64,000 nucleotides of DNA, taken from an uncultured Acidobacteriota bacterium. Lineage in GTDB: Bacteria > Acidobacteriota > Thermoanaerobaculia > Multivoradales > JAHEKO01. This document shows positions 23,985 to 29,937 of this stretch, one piece after another. Each line of letters opens with the position of its first letter. Position 1 is the stretch's first letter. The translations under genes and the position numbers were made by a program. Under the pieces are notes generated by a model. It searched no databases and was not told the origin of the DNA. It saw only the letters and a list, made by a program, of their open reading frames with translations. The stretch lies in assembly GCA_963713825.1 (NCBI GenBank), contig CAVQNG010000003.1, forward strand, positions 1,280,001-1,344,000, read 5' to 3'.

Positions 23985-25757
23985 CTATCGCCCCGCCAAT
24001 TCCGATAGTTCCAGTTGTAGCGATGCCGCCAGGCGACAGTCGGGATCTTCGCGGAGTCGTCTCTCCACCTCGCGGAGGGTGCTCTTCAACCTCGCCGGAT
24101 CGTCGTTGGCCGCCTGCAGCGTGGCTTCAGGATCCTCGGGATTCACGAAGTGGTATTCGAGCTCCTCGAGAAGTTGTCGGCGAGCAGGTCGGCGGGCGAG
24201 GTAGACCATTCCCAGGTCGTCCCAGTAGACGAGAGCGAAGCGGTCCGGTGTGAAGAGGATCGAGTTCGAGGTCAAACGAACGACCCTTGGCTCACCTCCG
24301 GCGACCATGGGTGGCTCGAGCACGGGCCTTCGTCGACGGTCGTAGCGCACCAGAGCACCGTCGATCTGGTATCGATCCAAGAGGGCATTCCAGGCCTGAC
24401 TGTTCTTGCGGGCTGTAGCCAGCTCTCGCAGGAAGTTGGGGTTCAGCTCGTTGCGGCCGTCGTTGAAAATCTGGCGAGGTGGGAAGAGACGCCACAGGAG
24501 ATAGCCGCCAAAGGCCACGTTGTTGTAGAGGTTCCCAAGCTCCGGAACCTGCTCTATGAAATCGACGGCCTTGTCCGGAAAGCGCCCAGGCTCCAGTCCT
24601 GAACCGAAGGTGTATCGGCCCTGCCGGGGCGCGAGAGGACCGCTGGTCGGTGGCCACAAGCACCAGGCGATACCCAGGAAGCAGGCGAGTACGGGCAGCA
24701 GTCTGGCTCTCGAGGAGCGTACGGGTGGCCTCCAGCCACAGGTGGCCAGCTCGGCCATGCACTCGGAGGCCAGGAAGAAGGCCCCGACAAAGAGTGGCGC
24801 TTGATGCCGCATCGAGGTGCTGGTCAAAGCCATGAGAGCCAGGGTGACCAGTCCTGTAGCCGGATCGAGCCGACGAGCGCAGCGGTACGTTTGCACGACC
24901 AGGAGTGCGAGTAGTGCCAGGCCGACGAAAAGAAACGGCTGAGGGGCTTTCCATACAGGCAGCCACTCGGGATTGACTCCCGGTACGCTCTCCAGGGCGC
25001 CGGAGATCTCTACGGGTACCGCGAAGAGCCTCCACCCGGAGGGGTTGAAGAGCATCACGAGCACAATGGCGAGGGGCAGACCGAGCACCCACTTCCAGGG
25101 CATGGGACTCGCCCCCCTGCGTGGCCCGCCCCAGCCGCCAGGTAGACGCGACCCCAGCAAGAACGCTCCACACAGAATCGGAGCCATCAGGGAGCCCGGG
25201 TGGGAGTTGGCCCAGAACAGGGTCAGGAGCAGCACCAGAGCGATCGGCCACCGCTGCCTGCCGCGCCGAAACTCGGAAAGCAGCGCCAGTAGCAGAGCGA
25301 GGGCCACGAGCGTCGGGAATTCGGGGCGTAGAAAAAAGCGCGGGCGCGCGCCGAGAATGGTGAGGAAGAGGACCATTCCGGTGCCGACAACAGGAGCACC
25401 GGCCCGCCTTGCCGAGAGCCACAGAATCAGAGCCAGGACCAGTGTCAGGCAGATTCGAATCACCCAAAGTCCCGTCAGCCCACCGACGCTCTCGATCGCC
25501 GCCAAGGCGACCTGGAACAGCCACTCATGGTCGACCCACGGGGCGCCGGCGGCGGTGAATCGAAAGGGATCGGGATCGGGAAGGGCGCGATTCTGGAGAA
25601 TCCAATGCCCGGCTGTCAGATGCCAGAAGACATCGTAGGCGCGAATCTTGAAGGCTGCCGCGATGGCGGAAAAGGCCAGAACCGCAGCGAGAATCACGCC
25701 CTTCCGGGCTTCGCTGCCTCTTGCCGTCGTAACTCCAGCCTCACCTTCCGGCATCAT
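23985..25757 (-). CDS. Multi-pass membrane protein, possibly GT-C-fold glycosyltransferase-like
   Basis: DVFWHL..GHWI, DPFRFT, WVDHEWLFQ, RPE, WANSHPG and GGYLLW..FNDGR motifs; about 10 TM helices. Confidence 0.55.
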   Translation of the reverse strand: MMPEGEAGVTTARGSEARKGVILAAVLAFSAIAAAFKIRAYDVFWHLTAGHWILQNRALPDPDPFRFTAAGAPWVDHEWLFQVALAAIESVGGLTGLWVIRICLTLVLALILWLSARRAGAPVVGTGMVLFLTILGARPRFFLRPEFPTLVALALLLALLSEFRRGRQRWPIALVLLLTLFWANSHPGSLMAPILCGAFLLGSRLPGGWGGPRRGASPMPWKWVLGLPLAIVLVMLFNPSGWRLFAVPVEISGALESVPGVNPEWLPVWKAPQPFLFVGLALLALLVVQTYRCARRLDPATGLVTLALMALTSTSMRHQAPLFVGAFFLASECMAELATCGWRPPVRSSRARLLPVLACFLGIAWCLWPPTSGPLAPRQGRYTFGSGLEPGRFPDKAVDFIEQVPELGNLYNNVAFGGYLLWRLFPPRQIFNDGRNELNPNFLRELATARKNSQAWNALLDRYQIDGALVRYDRRRRPVLEPPMVAGGEPRVVRLTSNSILFTPDRFALVYWDDLGMVYLARRPARRQLLEELEYHFVNPEDPEATLQAANDDPARLKSTLREVERRLREDPDCRLAASLQLELSELAGR

Positions 25758-25787: not shown

Positions 25788-26948
25788 TCACTGCTTCACT
25801 GCCTCATCGCTGCCCCTGTATTCGATCCGGTAGATCGCTCCGGCCCGATCGTCTGACACCAGAAGCGCACCCTCCGGTGTGACGTGCAAATCCACGGGTC
25901 GCCCCCAGGCGTCGTCGCCTTCCAGCCAACCTTCTGCGAAGACTTCGTACGAGGTCACCTCGTTGCCGTCGAGCCGAGCCAGGGTTATGCGATATCCAAT
26001 AGGAGTGCTGCGGTTCCAGGATCCGTGTTCGGCAATGAAGATCTGATGTCGATACTCGTCCGGAAAGGTCTCGCCGGTGTAGAAACGCATGCCGAGCGAG
26101 GCGACGTGGGGGCCGAGCTTGGCGGCGGGTGGTACGGTGTCGCCGCAGTCTCGTTTGTCGCCGAACTGCGGATCGGGAATGTCGCCACCATGGCAGTAGG
26201 GGAAGCCGAAATGGAGTCCCTGAGAGGGGGCTCGATTCAGCTCGTCGGGCGGCAGGTCATCGCCCAACATGTCGCGGCCGTTGTCGGTGAACCAGAGCTC
26301 GCCTGTCTCCGGATGCCAGTCGAAACCGACGGTATTGCGGACACCATGGGCGTAGATCTCATGGTTCTCGCCGTCGGCATCCAGGCGAGTGATGGAAGCG
26401 TAGATCGGCTCCTCTTTCTCACAGACATTGCACGGGGCACCCACCGGCACGTAGAGCTTGCCGTCCGGGCCGAATCGAATGAACTTCCAGCCGTGATGAG
26501 TGTCAGTCGGAAAATCGGCGCTCACGATGACGGGCTCCGGTGGATTCTCCAGCCGCTCGTCGATCTCGTCGAAACGCAGCACCCGATGAATCTCGGCCAC
26601 GTAGAGGGAGCCATTCCTCCAGGCAACACCGTTGGGTGCGTTCAGATCTGCAGCGATTTGGACGACCCGATCCGCAGAATGGTCGCCATCTTTGTCGATG
26701 ACGGCGTAGACGTTGCCCCCGCGGCGACTACCCACATACAGGATGCCCTTCGGGCTTTGTGTCATGGCACGAGCCCCGGGAACCTGATCGGTCAGTAGGG
26801 TGATCTCGAATCCCTCGGGTAGCTGGATTCGGTCGAGGTGGAGACCCTCCATCTTGCCAGCCGGTAGGCAAGAAGGAAGGGTGAGGAGGATGCCGAGGAC
26901 GAGAACGGTGGTGACGGCAAGCGCGGGTCCAATTCTGGTCGAGCTCAT
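25788..26948 (-). CDS. PQQ-dependent sugar/sorbosone dehydrogenase family (lipo)protein
   Basis: HHGWKFIRFGPDGKLY, GAPCNVC, GVRNTVG, TDNGRD, HGSWNR, GRPVD and SDD motifs; possible lipobox LPSC. Confidence 0.88.
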   Translation of the reverse strand: MSSTRIGPALAVTTVLVLGILLTLPSCLPAGKMEGLHLDRIQLPEGFEITLLTDQVPGARAMTQSPKGILYVGSRRGGNVYAVIDKDGDHSADRVVQIAADLNAPNGVAWRNGSLYVAEIHRVLRFDEIDERLENPPEPVIVSADFPTDTHHGWKFIRFGPDGKLYVPVGAPCNVCEKEEPIYASITRLDADGENHEIYAHGVRNTVGFDWHPETGELWFTDNGRDMLGDDLPPDELNRAPSQGLHFGFPYCHGGDIPDPQFGDKRDCGDTVPPAAKLGPHVASLGMRFYTGETFPDEYRHQIFIAEHGSWNRSTPIGYRITLARLDGNEVTSYEVFAEGWLEGDDAWGRPVDLHVTPEGALLVSDDRAGAIYRIEYRGSDEAVKQ

Positions 26949-27104
26949 GACCTTCCGAACATAGCGCTCGGGAGTCGACACCGCAAGGTGCCAGGTACTT
27001 TATTGGCCGAGGAGGGTTGGCCGGACGCTCTCACGCCAGTCGAGCGGGGAATCCTGGCTGCAGGCATGGGACAATAGGCCGTCGCACCATCGAAGGAGGT
27101 TCGA

Positions 27105-27812
27105 ATGACCGATGACGTACAGCAATTCCTGGCCACTGTAGGCATCTTTTCGGATCTGGAGCCCGATGAGCTGGCTCTCATCGCCGAGCTGGCAGAGGAG
27201 GTCATCTGGAAAGCAGGGGACGAGGCCTATGCCGTGGGAGATGAAGGCAGTTCCATGATCGTCGTCCGAGAGGGCCTCATCGAGCTCTACGGCGTGGCGG
27301 GCGGAGTCGACAAGCATTTCATGACCGTGCGTCCTGGCAACGCCTTCGGCTTGCTGGCGCTGATCGACCCGGGGCACCGGCCCGCGACCGCTCGAGTCGT
27401 GGAGCAGACTACAGGCCTGCGATTCGAAGGCGCGAAGCTCGATGGTCTGGTCGAGGCGCATCCCGCCACGGGCATCAAGCTGTTCAGGGCGCTTCTGGGA
27501 GTGTTGGGTGAGAGAGTTCGGATGCTGTCGGATCAGTACCGTGACACCGTGGCCTGGAATCTCCAGGTGACCGGGCTCGCCAGCCTCAACCTCGAGCACC
27601 TCATGAGCGAGCAGGTCCAGGTGGTCGTCGAGACGCTGCGAGGACAGCCGGTGCAAGGGACCTTGGTGCGGTTCGAGCAGAGTGCCGCTGGCCACGAGAT
27701 CTATCTCGAAGACGAAGACAAGCAGATTCACCTGATTCCCTACCACGCGATCGTGAGAATCTCAGTCGAGCGCAACAGGGTAGCTGGGGCCGAGGATACC
27801 CCCAACCTCTAG
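27105..27812 (+). CDS. Cyclic-nucleotide-binding domain protein with C-terminal Hfq/Sm-like domain
   Basis: cNMP domain (IFSDLEPDEL, GDEGSSMIVVREG, FGLLALID..RPATA). The C-terminus VVVETLRGQPVQGTLVRFEQ...HLIPYHAIVRI resembles Hfq Sm1/Sm2. RBS AAGGAGG. Confidence 0.75.
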   Translation: MTDDVQQFLATVGIFSDLEPDELALIAELAEEVIWKAGDEAYAVGDEGSSMIVVREGLIELYGVAGGVDKHFMTVRPGNAFGLLALIDPGHRPATARVVEQTTGLRFEGAKLDGLVEAHPATGIKLFRALLGVLGERVRMLSDQYRDTVAWNLQVTGLASLNLEHLMSEQVQVVVETLRGQPVQGTLVRFEQSAAGHEIYLEDEDKQIHLIPYHAIVRISVERNRVAGAEDTPNL

Positions 27813-27823
27813 GAGCCAAGACG

Positions 27824-28912
27824 ATGGCGGAAATAGACAAGCTGCTGAAGTTCGCTGTGATGAAGGGCGCCTCGGATCTCCATCTTGCTGCCAAGACCCG
27901 CCCCATGCTCCGCGTCGATGGTTCGATGGTTCCCGCCAAGGAGAGCGACACCGAGCCGCTTTCGGTCCAGGAGATGACGCAACTGGTCGGTGAGATCATG
28001 CCGCCCCGGGCCAAAGAGGAGCTGCAGCAGAACCTCGACACGGATTTCGCCTACGCCGTCGCCGGTCTGGGCCGCTTTCGAGTCAACGTGTTTCGGAACA
28101 ATCTCGGGATTGGGGCTGTCCTACGACATATCCCTGGGGAGATCCTGACCTTCGAAGACCTGAAGTTGCCAGCCACTCTCGAGCAGTTCTGCAGGCTCAA
28201 CAAAGGACTGGTGCTGGTGACGGGGCCGACAGGCAGTGGAAAATCGACCACGCAGGCCGCCATGATCGACTTCATCAATCGGACTCGTCGGGACCATGTC
28301 ATTACCGTCGAAGACCCCATCGAGTTCGTCCATCAGGACAAGCAGTGCCGGATCAGTCAGCGGGAGGTCAAAGAGCACGCGCAGAGCTTCAAACGCGCCC
28401 TGCGGGCGGCGTTACGTCAGGACCCCGACATCGTGCTGGTAGGGGAGATGCGGGATCTCGAAACCACAGAAACGGCCATCGAGACCGCGGAGACCGGCCA
28501 CCTGGTGTTCGGAACGTTGCACACCTCGACGGCAGCCAGCACGGTGGATCGGATCATCGATCAGTTTCCGCACGAACGGCAGGAGCAGATCCGGACCATG
28601 CTGGCCGCTTCGCTCAAAGGGGTTGTCTGCCAGACTCTCTGCAAGCGTAAGGAGGGCAGCGGCCGGATCGCGGCGCTCGAGATCATGGTGGTGACCCACG
28701 GCATCGCAGCCAACATCCGAGAGGGTCGGACTCACCAGATCGTCACCTCGATCCAGACGGGCAAGAGCCTGGGGATGCGCCTGCTGAACGATGACCTTCT
28801 GCGTCTCGTGAAGGACCACTCCGTCGATGCCGAGGAGGCCTACAGCAAGGCCATGGACAAGACGGATATGGCGAACAAGCTGCGAACAGCGGGCTTTAAC
28901 GTGGCCAGCTAG
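27824..28912 (+). CDS. pilT: Type IV pilus twitching-motility retraction ATPase
   Basis: ASDLHL, GRFRVNVF, GPTGSGKSTT, TVEDPIEF, ALRQDPD, GEMRD and ETGHLVFGTLHT motifs. Confidence 0.95.
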   Translation: MAEIDKLLKFAVMKGASDLHLAAKTRPMLRVDGSMVPAKESDTEPLSVQEMTQLVGEIMPPRAKEELQQNLDTDFAYAVAGLGRFRVNVFRNNLGIGAVLRHIPGEILTFEDLKLPATLEQFCRLNKGLVLVTGPTGSGKSTTQAAMIDFINRTRRDHVITVEDPIEFVHQDKQCRISQREVKEHAQSFKRALRAALRQDPDIVLVGEMRDLETTETAIETAETGHLVFGTLHTSTAASTVDRIIDQFPHERQEQIRTMLAASLKGVVCQTLCKRKEGSGRIAALEIMVVTHGIAANIREGRTHQIVTSIQTGKSLGMRLLNDDLLRLVKDHSVDAEEAYSKAMDKTDMANKLRTAGFNVAS

Positions 28913-28949
28913 TTTCGAACTCGCCTAGAACACGACCACGGACGGTGCC

Positions 28950-29630
28950 TCATGGCACCACCAGCGACCAGGCGCTCAGATCACCCGACTCGAAACCATC
29001 GGTGAAGATCGCGGCCAACGTAGAGCAGTCGGAATCAGCATCGTCATAGGCTAGATCACCGTCGTTGTCGAGGCCGAGACCGTCCGGTGTCCAGTTCTCC
29101 GAGCCGTCTCCGTTGCAGGGGTCCAGGACGTTGACGTTAGTTCCACCGTAGTAGATCGGAACTGCGTCTTCCCCGAGGGGCGCGGGATCGTCGTTGTGGC
29201 AGCCGGCATCGGCGCAGAGGTGCCCGCTGTTGTCAGTGCCCACATTGGCGTTGGCGTGGTGCAACCTGAGTCCCGAGCCCCACCAGGAGTTGTCTGGCGT
29301 GCTGGGATCGGGGTCTACCCCATGGCAGCCCATGCAACTGACGCCCGCCAGTCCTGGTTCGCCACGGGATTCATTGAGTAGCGGATCGTCACCGTTGACG
29401 ATGTGGCAGGTGCCGCAGAGGTTGTTCATCATTTGTCTGCGATGCACATCGTGTTTGTCGTCGGGCCAGGTGTTGTTCGGCTTCGTCGAGGTGGAATCAC
29501 GGAAGCTCCCGTGGCAATCTGTGCAACCGGATGTCCAGCTGTTGTAGGCGCCGGCATCTTCAGGCGTTGCGAGCCACACCGAGGTTGCGAGAAATACAAG
29601 GCCGGACAGGACGAGGTTTCTACGTTGCAT
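28950..29630 (-). CDS. Secreted multiheme c-type cytochrome with C-terminal FTDGFESG tail
   Basis: Signal peptide; CTDCH, CGTCH, CMGCH and non-canonical CADAGCH; acidic DNDGD..DDADSDC segment; ends IFTDGFESGDLSAWSLVVP. GGAGG RBS before ATG 29630. Confidence 0.8.
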   Translation of the reverse strand: MQRRNLVLSGLVFLATSVWLATPEDAGAYNSWTSGCTDCHGSFRDSTSTKPNNTWPDDKHDVHRRQMMNNLCGTCHIVNGDDPLLNESRGEPGLAGVSCMGCHGVDPDPSTPDNSWWGSGLRLHHANANVGTDNSGHLCADAGCHNDDPAPLGEDAVPIYYGGTNVNVLDPCNGDGSENWTPDGLGLDNDGDLAYDDADSDCSTLAAIFTDGFESGDLSAWSLVVP

Positions 29631-29937
29631 TCTTACCTCCAGTCGATCCATGGAACTCCGCCTGCCATGCGAGGCGGAGAATCCGCCCAGCGGTGGCCCT
29701 ATCCTTCGTAACCTTGTCGAGGCCCGGGGATTTGCTCCATTCCCAGGGTGCAAGCTTGATGCCACGCGTTGATGCCTGCGAAAACACGACCTTCTGTCTC
29801 GATTTGGAGTGAACCAGGGAATAATTCCCGGATTTGGGAAGCGCTTCGAGGCTCGCAGTGATCCGAATCGACTCTTGAAGCGTAGTGTCTGCTAAGGTGC
29901 CACGGCACCCGAATTCGCGACAGGAGAGAACATCATT

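What the first reader, a model, noticed from the sequence alone, without database searches (positions are those of the whole stretch)
27105..28912. cNMP-binding domain fused to an Hfq/Sm-like domain, directly upstream of pilT
Seen: the last ~65 aa (QVVVETLRGQPVQGTLVRFEQ...QIHLIPYHAIVRISV) align by eye with E. coli Hfq ([21 protein letters not shown]...SQMVYKHAISTV), including G-x3-QG, F-(D/E)-Q and HAI. This replaces the HTH found in Crp. pilT starts 11 nt after its stop. Known: Sm folds form hexameric rings, PilT is a hexameric ATPase, and cyanobacterial Hfq acts on type IV pili by binding PilB. The FGE of the phosphate-binding cassette is FGL here, so the ligand may not be cAMP. Inference: either a ligand-gated ring regulator of pilus retraction or a nucleotide-controlled RNA chaperone.
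Basis: partly seen in the sequence, partly recalled or inferred. Interest (0 to 1): 0.75.

Follow-up and report, generated by a model that had tools for sequence, protein, structure and literature searches.

The report
CRP-like sensor fused to Hfq-like domain
A small bacterial protein joins a cyclic-nucleotide-type sensor to a domain related to the RNA chaperone Hfq, and it is almost always encoded directly before an extra copy of the pilus-retraction motor PilT, so it is probably an undescribed regulator of that motor.

Summary
ORF 27105-27812 (235 aa) has a CRP-like cNMP-binding domain and a long helix, and an Hfq-like beta-barrel stands where CRP has its HTH. pilT starts 11 nt after the stop.

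The C-domain model matches Hfq first in two fold searches (Z 9.5-10.4). A profile-profile comparison with 29 acidobacterial Hfq cores gives 96.4% probability; 20 shuffled controls reach at most 6.5%. It scores below Pfam's Hfq cut-off, so databases list only the cNMP domain.

The architecture defines a wider family: about 100 full-length representative clusters, down to 22% identity. In 16 of 18 informative genomes a PilT paralog follows directly, and no other neighbour is conserved.

The domain is acidic (window -6; canonical Hfq cores about +3). It lacks the rim arginines and the distal tyrosine, and the genome has its own hfq. I therefore favour a sensor that acts on the co-encoded PilT paralog over an RNA chaperone. 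The closest precedent is cyanobacterial Hfq, which binds PilB.

Ring formation, PilT binding and the ligand remain untested. In this clade the phosphate-binding cassette is degenerate (FGL, R-P-A).

I found no prior description. I rate it a new variant of known kinds, moderately to highly interesting.

The parts
27092..27099 (+). Shine-Dalgarno sequence GAAGGAGG, 5 nt upstream of the start codon of the sensor gene
   Evidence: Read directly. Homologues start at the same Met (alignment).
27105..27812 (+). Gene for the 235-aa cNMP-binding / Hfq-like fusion protein (stop codon included)
   Evidence: ORF. 70 full-length or partial relatives and 1 unrelated match. About 100 full-length representative clusters.
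27207..27458 (+). Cyclic-nucleotide-binding beta-barrel (residues 35-118)
   Evidence: Pfam PF00027, E 6.5e-11. Foldseek places residues 1 to about 148 on Mtb CRP, GlxR and Thermus CAP, rmsd about 2 A over 135-148 columns.
27345..27395 (+). Phosphate-binding cassette (residues 81-97), F-G-L-L...H-R-P-A-T-A-R. It is degenerate against the canonical F-G-E...R-[ST]-A.
   Evidence: Column counts. Close clade: L83 32/32, R92 25/32, P93 31/32. Wider family: E 51/82, R 68/82, S/T 48/82.
27462..27584 (+). Long C-helix and conserved hinge (residues 120-160, including W151-N-L-x-V-T-G157)
   Evidence: Helix 120-160 in the full-length model. W151, N152 and L153 are invariant in 32 relatives. This is the second most conserved region.
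27582..27770 (+). Hfq-like Sm domain (residues 160-222): N-terminal helix plus five strands. Signature: G180, G185, F190-E191, G196, P212-Y213-H214-A215.
   Evidence: It is the most conserved part of the protein (73% against 58% for the cNMP barrel among 31 close relatives).
27813..27823 (+). 11-nt spacer between the two genes. An AGGAG (27811-27815) overlaps the stop codon and can serve as the ribosome-binding site of pilT.
   Evidence: Read directly. No promoter-like or terminator-like site in 26700-29200.
27824..28912 (+). PilT-family hexameric ATPase paralog, 362 aa (stop codon included)
   Evidence: TIGR01420, 446 bits against a cut-off of 319.1. It is the third best of 4 PilT/PilU-family genes in the genome. 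The conserved ATPase stretches (GPTGSGKST, DPDIVLVGEMRD, TGHLVFGTLHT) are visible.

Best explanation
The gene encodes a CRP-type small-molecule sensor. Its DNA-binding helix-turn-helix has been replaced by an Hfq-derived beta-barrel, and it forms a two-gene operon with a dedicated PilT-family ATPase paralog.

Proposed mechanism (inferred, not shown): ligand occupancy of the N-terminal cNMP-type barrel moves the long C-helix and the conserved W-N-L...G hinge. This changes how the Hfq-like domain is presented or assembled. The Hfq-like domain acts as a protein-contact module on the co-encoded PilT paralog and tunes that motor's activity or its recruitment to a type IV pilus base. Cyanobacterial Hfq works in a comparable way on PilB.

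Shown here: the domain architecture, homology of the C-domain to Hfq, loss of most RNA-binding features, the conserved gene pair, and co-divergence of the two genes.

Inferred: the physical contact with PilT, the direction of regulation, the oligomeric state and the ligand. In this clade the cassette is degenerate, so the ligand may not be cAMP or cGMP, or the domain may no longer bind a ligand.
For: 1. Architecture. The cNMP domain scores above the Pfam cut-off. The N-terminal half superposes on CRP, GlxR and Mtb-CRP including the C-helix. The C-domain matches Hfq first in two independent fold searches, and profile-profile comparison gives 96.4% against at most 6.5% in 21 controls.

2. Gene pair. 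A PilT paralog follows directly in 11 of 11 informative species-representative loci (the 12th is cut by a contig end). The same holds in 3 of 3 further genomes of a second phylum and in 2 of 4 of a third. That is 16 of 18 in total. Flanking genes differ between lineages.

3. Co-divergence. As the sensor falls from 87% to 55% to about 30% to about 25% identity, the adjacent PilT falls from 91-95% to 76-82% to 57-59% to 44-50%. In a quick maximum-likelihood tree of 37 PilT-family rows, 9 of 12 linked PilTs form one clade (SH-aLRT 98). This clade is separate from the genome's best-scoring PilT, which is the only paralog carrying AIRNLIRE (motif name recalled).

4. Against an RNA role, and so in favour of a protein-contact role. 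The domain has net charge -6 and pI 5.0 (family mean -2.2, n = 82), against +3.2 and pI 9.6 for 29 Hfq cores. Where acidobacterial Hfq has R-[KR]-E-[RK], Y (in I-Y-L) and F-K-H, this protein has M-S-E-Q, E176 and P-Y-H. The genome also keeps a canonical hfq (59 bits).

5. Precedent. Cyanobacterial Hfq is unlikely to bind RNA, binds a C-terminal extension of PilB and is needed for pilus assembly (review PMC12288463, passages read).

6. The C-domain and hinge are the best conserved parts of the protein, as expected for the output end.

7. Signalling capacity. The genome has 3 class III nucleotide-cyclase domain matches above cut-off.
Against: - No contact with PilT has been shown by any method here.
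- Two of 18 genomes carry the family without pilT. These are tandem duplicated copies beside a TPR-PPIase gene and parB-parA-rsmG, so the link is a property of a large subfamily and not of the fold.
- In the quick tree, both PilT genes of one linked locus (G645: the one directly downstream and the second in tandem) fall outside the linked group. A third linked PilT (G746) is sister to the 9-row clade together with an unlinked PilT. The careful tree search did not finish.
- The P-Y-H-A motif sits exactly where Hfq has its pore-lining Y-K-H-A. The position of the stacking Phe is H/Y/W/F in 48 of 82 members. A nucleotide or RNA pocket could therefore survive.
- Operon neighbours need not touch each other.
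- The cassette in this clade lacks the Glu and the Ser/Thr, and in 7 of 32 close relatives the Arg as well. 'Ligand-gated' may therefore not apply to this very protein.
Confidence: 0.45

Rival explanations
1. Ligand-controlled riboregulator. The Hfq-like domain still binds RNA, for example the pilT leader or U-rich 3' ends, and the cNMP-type domain switches this binding. pilT would then be controlled in cis at the level of translation or mRNA stability.
For: - True homology to Hfq.
- His at the Hfq H57 position in 59 of 82 members. An aromatic or His at the F42 position in 48 of 82. Tyr in 72 of 82 at the K56 position, which could stack on a base (Hfq numbering recalled).
- The tight 11-nt junction, with the pilT ribosome-binding site overlapping the stop codon, is a natural target for cis control. 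Adjacency would be conserved under this model too.
Against: - The domain is acidic.
- The rim arginines, the distal Tyr and the Lys of Y-K-H are all replaced.
- The His is absent in several PilT-linked members: IPYSAV, VPYSHI and VPYAHI.
- A canonical Hfq and a second Hfq-like gene already exist in the genome.
- No Rfam or structure test of the short spacer was made.
Confidence: 0.15
2. Same pathway but no direct PilT contact. The protein is a second-messenger receptor or scaffold whose Hfq-like domain binds another pilus-base component (PilB, PilC, PilM) or another partner. It is co-expressed with the PilT paralog only because both serve the same appendage.
For: - The conserved operon.
- In cyanobacteria the Hfq partner is PilB, not PilT.
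- The two genomes with the family away from pilT show that the fold can work without a neighbouring PilT.
Against: - Only PilT is conserved next to the gene; no other pilus gene is.
- Co-divergence of the pair and a largely separate linked-PilT clade fit a specific partnership better.
Confidence: 0.22
3. Unconventional transcription factor. A CRP-like dimer uses the Hfq-like barrels, instead of an HTH, to bind DNA. Hfq and WYL-type Sm-like barrels can bind nucleic acids.
For: - The N-terminal half is CRP-like including the dimerisation helix.
- WYL-domain regulators (DriD, CapW, BrxR, PafBC) appear among the fold matches at Z 6.6-7.8.
- Zinc-finger-Hfq fusions have been proposed to target DNA (PMC3710371, passages read).
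Against: - Acidic domain.
- No HTH or other DNA-binding family in Pfam.
- Hfq matches stand clearly above the WYL matches.
Confidence: 0.05
4. Degenerate relic. In this clade the sensor no longer binds any ligand, and the protein is a constitutive accessory subunit of the PilT paralog.
For: L83 in 32 of 32 and P93 in 31 of 32 close relatives, with Arg92 replaced by Q or P in 7 of 32. The cNMP barrel is less conserved than the C-domain.
Against: - The barrel is still under constraint (58% identity across the clade; Pfam hit above cut-off).
- Arg92 is kept in the window protein.
- Epac-type domains bind cAMP without the cassette Glu (recalled, not tested here).
Confidence: 0.1

Closest known systems
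Cyanobacterial Hfq as a type IV pilus motor cofactor (Synechocystis Hfq-PilB; Schuergers et al. 2014, as summarised in review PMC12288463, passages read)
   Same: An Hfq-fold protein with poorly kept RNA-binding features that is tied to a PilB/PilT-family hexameric ATPase. The Synechocystis Hfq structure 3hfo is the top VIA-align match (Z 10.4; within 1 Z unit of the other six Hfq rows, so tied).
   Different: There, Hfq is a stand-alone protein of about 70 aa, the partner is the assembly ATPase PilB through a C-terminal extension, and no sensor domain is attached. Here the Hfq-like domain is the C-terminal output of a cNMP-type sensor and the conserved neighbour is a PilT (retraction-type) paralog. 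Binding is not shown here.
CRP/FNR-family regulators (E. coli CRP, M. tuberculosis CRP, C. glutamicum GlxR)
   Same: N-terminal helices, cNMP-binding beta-barrel and long C-helix. The best structural matches for residues 1 to about 148 are Mtb CRP and GlxR (E about 1e-12, rmsd about 2 A). Sources annotate relatives as 'CRP-like cAMP-binding protein'.
   Different: There is no helix-turn-helix; the C-terminal 75 residues are an Hfq-like barrel. The cassette is FGL...RPA instead of FGE...R[ST]A in this clade.
Canonical bacterial Hfq (PF17209 / TIGR02383)
   Same: Same fold, with one helix and five strands. Homologous by profile-profile comparison. The structural Sm1/Sm2 residues are kept: the two Gly, F-[DE], and H-A-I.
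   Different: - Scores below both curated cut-offs.
- Acidic rather than basic.
- Rim Arg patch, distal Tyr and pore Lys are replaced.
- Fused behind a sensor.
- The genome has a separate genuine hfq.
Second-messenger receptors that act on pilus ATPases (c-di-GMP: FimX/PilZ-PilB; PMC5595344, search listing and abstract only)
   Same: The logic of a small-molecule receptor acting directly on a PilB/PilT-family motor. The accessory module is a small beta-barrel.
   Different: A different messenger class (cNMP-type domain against c-di-GMP domains), a different barrel family (Hfq against PilZ) and a different target (a PilT paralog).
Other Sm/Hfq domain fusions (zinc-finger-Hfq of archaeal plasmids, SmAP3, the MscS middle domain; PMC3710371, passages read)
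   Same: They show that the Sm/Hfq barrel is used as a module in multi-domain proteins, including as a C-terminal domain.
   Different: None of those passages describes a cNMP-binding partner domain or a link to pilus motors ('cyclic nucleotide' and 'cNMP' occur 0 times in that paper).

Membership tests
Cyclic nucleotide-binding domain (Pfam PF00027) | Score above the curated gathering cut-off | tested here: met
   42.5 bits against 27.5, residues 35-118. All 82 of 82 family members scanned match.
Cyclic nucleotide-binding domain (functional cAMP/cGMP site) | Phosphate-binding cassette F-G-E ... R-[ST]-A (motif recalled from the CRP/PKA literature) | tested here: not met
   The window has F-G-L ... 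R-P-A. Gly82 and Arg92 are kept; the Glu is replaced by Leu (32/32 in the clade) and the Ser/Thr by Pro (31/32). The wider family mostly meets the motif (E 51/82, R 68/82, S/T 48/82). Ligand binding itself is not testable with these tools.
CRP/FNR transcription factor family | C-terminal helix-turn-helix DNA-binding domain | tested here: not met
   No HTH family at E <= 1 in Pfam. The C-terminus folds as an Hfq-like barrel.
CRP/FNR transcription factor family | cNMP-type barrel followed by a long dimerisation C-helix | tested here: met
   Helix 120-160 in the model. Superposes on Mtb CRP and GlxR over 142-148 columns at rmsd 2.1-2.7 A. Dimerisation itself was not tested.
Hfq (Pfam PF17209; NCBIfam TIGR02383) | Score above the curated cut-offs | tested here: not met
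   12.8 bits against 27 and 15.5 bits against 61.7. Among 82 members, 10 match Hfq and 14 match Hfq_1 at E <= 1, best E 5.6e-5 and 3.6e-4.
Hfq / Sm fold | N-terminal helix plus a five-stranded bent beta-sheet; homology detectable by profile comparison | tested here: met
   Model. Every listed Foldseek row is Hfq. VIA Z 9.5-10.4 for seven rows containing Hfq, with the next family at 8.9. hhalign 96.4%, against at most 6.5% in 21 controls.
Hfq (functional RNA chaperone) | Basic rim (Arg patch), distal-face Tyr, proximal Gln/Phe/Lys/His pocket (E. coli residue numbers recalled) | tested here: not met
   The rim R-[KR]-E-[RK] is replaced by M-S-E-Q. The distal Tyr is replaced by Glu176 (E/D in 39 of 82). 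The Lys is replaced by Tyr213 (72/82). Only the His (59/82) and an aromatic or His at the Phe position (48/82) remain. Net charge is -6 against +3.2.
Hfq / Sm fold | Assembly into hexameric (or heptameric) rings | not tested
   Both structure-prediction jobs went on monomers and the single complex job went on the PilT pair. SEC-MALS or cryo-EM is needed.
PilT/PilU family type IVa pilus ATPase (TIGR01420), for the downstream gene | Score above the curated cut-off; conserved ATPase stretches | tested here: met
   446 bits against 319.1. GPTGSGKST, DPDIVLVGEMRD and TGHLVFGTLHT are visible.
Canonical retraction ATPase PilT | AIRNLIRE motif (recalled from the PilT literature) | tested here: inconclusive
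   The linked paralog has G-I-A-A-N-I-R-E. Only another paralog of the genome (L052, the best TIGR01420 score) has A-I-R-N-L-I-R-E.

The most novel reading that the evidence does not exclude
The Hfq-like domains assemble into a ring crowned by six cNMP-type sensors. This ring docks coaxially on the hexameric PilT paralog and gates pilus retraction in response to a small molecule. It would be a second, independent case (after cyanobacterial Hfq-PilB) of the Hfq fold serving as a cofactor of type IV pilus motors. It would also be the first direct cyclic-nucleotide-type receptor acting on a PilT, and it would point to an old functional tie between Hfq rings and PilB/PilT hexamers.
Probability: 0.2. 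Interest if true: 0.85.

Novelty: new variant of a known kind. Interest (0 to 1): 0.62.

Why it matters
How pilus retraction motors are switched is only partly understood, and bacteria with many PilT paralogs (4 to 13 in the genomes examined here) have no assigned roles for most of them.

This family offers a testable candidate: a one-protein signalling route from a small-molecule sensor to a dedicated PilT paralog.

It also widens what the Hfq fold is known to do. After cyanobacterial Hfq-PilB, it would be a second lineage in which an Hfq-type barrel has left RNA biology for pilus motors, and the first in which it is the output domain of a CRP-type sensor.

There is a practical point for annotation. 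The C-terminal domain scores below every curated cut-off, so databases label these proteins only 'cyclic nucleotide-binding' or 'CRP-like'. That label wrongly suggests a transcription factor.

Tried and rejected
- Complex prediction of PilT with the sensor returned 'no answer' (score 0.00, controls not run). It counts neither for nor against binding.
- Sequence-only searches of the C-domain against the PDB were weak. phmmer gave a single hit, S. aureus Hfq, E 0.67. The 10-row profile gave Listeria Hfq, E 0.93, beside an acetyltransferase at E 1. The full-length profile was swamped by cNMP domains: all 60 rows shown end by query position 148, and 250 further rows were not shown.
The genome context and taxonomy of the roughly 100 distant clusters therefore could not be read, and the synteny count rests on 18 genomes.
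- One genome search had a wrong 'of' argument and was corrected.
- The ESM Atlas search with the C-domain alone gave no usable hit. With the whole protein it gave a 353-member 'hypothetical protein' cluster carrying only PF00027.
- The promoter and terminator scan of 26700-29200 found nothing.
- Earlier-findings look-up by sequence: nothing.
- Expression. Contigs from two metatranscriptomic libraries of one sample lie on the sensor gene at about 99% identity (records 9, 10, 25, 26). One contig from a relative about 90% identical bridges the gene junction (record 11, 27726-28128). The tool warns that DNA can be present in such libraries and that a contig across two genes shows no single transcript. 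This is at most a weak hint of expression. Parts without cover say nothing.
- The antisense ORF 27000-27746 (248 aa) overlapping the gene is treated as a by-product of the high G+C content; it was not tested further.
- A PilZ-like or PRC-barrel reading of the C-domain was considered. PRC_RimM matches 7 of 82 members weakly, but Hfq stands first in both fold searches.
- Literature searches that found no description of this fusion or gene pair: (0, 0, 0, 1 and 2 papers; one paper from each of the last two was listed, and both are unrelated. For one search this is judged from the listing; for from passages read). Subscription journals are largely outside the library.
Full report
WHAT IS THERE

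The window holds two co-directional ORFs: 27105-27812 (235 aa) and 27824-28912 (362 aa). The first has a strong ribosome-binding site, GAAGGAGG, 5 nt before its ATG. Its TAG stop is followed by 11 nt and then the ATG of the second gene, and an AGGAG overlaps the stop. The gene upstream (25788-26981, a glucose/sorbosone-dehydrogenase-like protein) and the gene downstream (28950-29765, a CXXCH-rich protein) are both on the other strand. The pair therefore stands alone as a two-gene unit. No sigma-70-like promoter or intrinsic terminator was found by consensus scan. The wider surroundings are unrelated to pili: a sulfatase, an MsrA-MsrB fusion, an APH-type kinase and a sodium:solute symporter.

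THE FIRST PROTEIN

Pfam finds a cNMP-binding domain at residues 35-118 (E 6.5e-11). The next hit is Hfq at residues 163-223, which is sub-threshold (E 0.09). NCBIfam agrees (Hfq E 0.012).

The full-length AlphaFold2 model (pLDDT 79) shows three elements: the cNMP barrel, a 41-residue helix (120-160), and a five-stranded domain. Its N-terminal 148 or so residues superpose best on M. tuberculosis CRP, GlxR and Thermus CAP, including the C-helix.

I modelled residues 155-235 alone with an 89-row alignment (pLDDT 85; one helix, five strands). Foldseek against the PDB lists only Hfq entries (best E 6.7e-5; TM on target 0.74-0.85; 20-30% identity). VIA-align does not depend on Foldseek. It ranks seven Hfq-containing entries first (Z 9.5-10.4), ahead of YaeO (8.9), archaeal and eukaryotic Sm proteins (about 7-8.4) and WYL-domain regulators (about 6.6-7.8).

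In the Python box I trimmed the family alignment to the C-domain and compared it by hhalign with 29 Hfq cores. I took these cores from Acidobacteriota genomes; one fetched locus from an unpublished genome was left out. The result was 96.4% probability, E 1.4e-9, over 57 aligned columns. Twenty column-shuffled Hfq profiles and a reversed one gave at most 6.5%.

The domain is thus a true, divergent Hfq homologue and not merely a small barrel. No curated model reaches its cut-off on it, so sources name the relatives 'CRP-like cAMP-binding protein' or nothing at all.

THE FAMILY

A word-indexed search found 71 proteins, 70 of them relatives. Most are 234-235 aa and 50-98% identical over the full length. 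The exhaustive search of cluster representatives found 30 proteins at E < 1e-30 and roughly 100 single-stretch, full-length hits of 220-250 aa, down to about 22% identity. Many longer multi-cNMP proteins also appear, but these match only the sensor.

Across 82 members the signature of the C-domain is V-x-V-x-L-x-x-G-x-x-x-x-G-x-L-L-x-V-E ... G-x-E-L ... I-P-Y-H-A-I. Counts: G185 in 80 of 82, P212 in 79, Y213 in 72, L177, G180 and G196 in 70-71, H214 in 59. Among close relatives the C-domain (73% mean identity) and the helix/hinge (67%) are better conserved than the cNMP barrel (58%).

RNA-BINDING FEATURES

I used the hhalign register against acidobacterial Hfq and recalled E. coli numbering. 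The findings are:
- Structural residues are kept: the two Gly, F39-D40 as F-E, and H57-A-I.
- The rim R16/R17/R19 patch reads M-S-E-Q.
- The distal Y25 is Glu176 (E or D in 39 of 82).
- K56 is Tyr and Y55 is Pro.
- The F42 position is His here, and H/Y/W/F in 48 of 82.
- Residues 160-222 carry a net charge of -6 (pI 5.0). The family mean is -2.2. The 29 Hfq cores average +3.2 (pI 9.6).
- The genome has a canonical hfq (59 bits) and a second Hfq-like gene (30 bits). The fusion is only the third-best Hfq match in the genome.

THE SENSOR SITE

In the 32 close relatives the cassette is F-G-L-L ... R-P-[AG]. Leu83 is invariant, Pro93 is present in 31 of 32, and Arg92 in 25 of 32 (Q in 4, P in 3). 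In the 82-member wider set the canonical residues dominate: Glu in 51, Arg in 68, Ser/Thr in 48.

The family is therefore ancestrally a normal cNMP receptor, and the window's clade has drifted. Either the ligand has changed or binding has been lost. The genome encodes three class III cyclase domains, so cyclic nucleotides are probably made.

THE SECOND PROTEIN AND THE LINK

The downstream gene is a PilT/PilU-family ATPase (446 bits against a cut-off of 319.1) with intact ATPase stretches. The genome has four such genes. Another one (L052) scores best and is the only one with the canonical A-I-R-N-L-I-R-E (motif recalled); the linked one reads G-I-A-A-N-I-R-E.

Scan of one genome per species. 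This gave 12 loci, whose record titles name Acidobacteriota/Thermoanaerobaculia, a Desulfobacterales MAG, a Polyangiaceae MAG and an 'uncultured proteobacterium'. In 11 of them a PilT gene follows directly. The 12th ends inside the sensor gene.

Sampling of whole genomes with a C-domain profile:
- Own phylum: 2 of 301 genomes (the window's genome and one of the same genus).
- The phylum of the 'proteobacterium' MAG: 4 of 301. The three new ones all have pilT next door.
- The phylum of the Desulfobacterales MAG: 5 of 351. Of the four new ones, two have pilT next door, one of them with two PilT genes in tandem.
- The other two new genomes carry tandem duplicated sensor-Hfq-like genes between a TPR-PPIase gene and parB-parA-rsmG, with no pilT.

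These frequencies are lower bounds, because only the best 15-18 first-look candidates per genome were scored. The total is 16 of 18 informative genomes.

Flanking genes are not conserved outside the close relatives. Identity of the two genes falls together.

I built a quick maximum-likelihood tree of 37 PilT-family rows. It used 28 of the 36 rows: six rows had no locus and two were fragments, and these were left out. To these I added the window PilT, its three paralogs and five further linked PilTs. The tree places 9 of 12 linked PilTs in one clade (SH-aLRT 98), apart from the canonical-type PilT. A tenth linked PilT is sister to that clade together with one unlinked PilT. The two PilTs of the tandem locus fall elsewhere. 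The careful search did not finish. Carriers have 4 to 13 PilT-family genes, so the linked gene is always an extra paralog.

INTERPRETATION

The protein is a CRP-type sensor whose output is an Hfq-derived barrel. This barrel has lost most of what makes Hfq an RNA chaperone, but it is the most constrained part of the protein, and the protein is inherited together with a dedicated PilT paralog.

The best-supported mechanism is that the barrel contacts that ATPase, or its pilus base, and that the sensor modulates the contact through the long helix and the conserved W-N-L...G hinge.

The closest precedent is cyanobacterial Hfq. [quoted passage not shown] Sm/Hfq barrels are known as modules in fusions (PMC3710371, passages), but not with a cNMP domain.

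Contact, ring formation, ligand and phenotype are all inferences.

Rivals:
- A ligand-controlled RNA binder. The P-Y-H-A motif sits at the Hfq pore position.
- A partner other than PilT.
- A DNA binder.
- A ligand-blind accessory subunit.

NOVELTY

Five literature searches, combining cNMP or cyclic nucleotide with Sm, Hfq or PilT, found nothing relevant (passages's listed paper were read). Earlier findings of this scan hold nothing similar.

I rate this a new variant of known kinds: a cNMP receptor with a new output domain, and an Hfq-fold pilus cofactor of a new type. It is not a new category.

Two unpublished genomes (G024, G049) are part of the tally only. No claim here depends on them.

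Supplements of the cited papers were not consulted.

Noticed in passing
L020:1473-1848 (own genome, contig C3:511714-511887, outside the window): A second, 125-aa Hfq-like gene beside the canonical hfq. It passes both Pfam Hfq (29.4 bits) and Hfq_1 (28 bits) and has an N-terminal extension of about 55 residues. Similar second copies occur in many of the 61 Acidobacteriota sampled.
   Followed up: partly
L081:2788-4190 and L082:3652-5206: In two genomes of the Desulfobacterales-MAG phylum the sensor-Hfq-like gene is duplicated in tandem. It lies between a TPR-PPIase gene and parB-parA-rsmG (the chromosome-partition locus), with no pilT nearby. The P-Y-H-A motif is degraded in three of the four copies.
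   Followed up: partly
L079:2732-7353: In one locus the sensor gene is followed by two PilT paralogs in tandem. A histidine kinase and an OmpR-type response regulator precede it on the same strand.
   Followed up: no
L069:1045-1713; L017:5001-6799: Two relatives carry frame breaks. In L069 the sensor gene is split into two frames (ORFs 1045-1314 and 1387-1713). In L017 both the sensor and the PilT gene are read in several frames. The cause may be assembly error or pseudogenes; this was not resolved.
   Followed up: no
window 28950-29765 (-): A 271-aa protein with several CXXCH motifs but only weak cytochrome-c family matches (best E 0.0016, below cut-off). It is conserved downstream of pilT in the close relatives, at 62-71% identity.
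   Followed up: no
window 23985-25757 (-): A 590-aa, apparently membrane-spanning protein with no Pfam family at E <= 1e-4.
   Followed up: no
L055 (own genome, contig C25:614380-615411 and downstream): One of the four PilT-family paralogs carries a C-terminal extension of about 100 residues, rich in E, K, Q and L and coiled-coil-like by eye.
   Followed up: no
window 26900-29000: Near-identical DNA (half or more of the sampled words) is held by 11 coded runs labelled as freshwater, marine, salt-marsh or other sediment metagenomes or left unlabelled; the 20 holding rows come from 13 studies. Only X1 and X2 were laid.
   Followed up: partly
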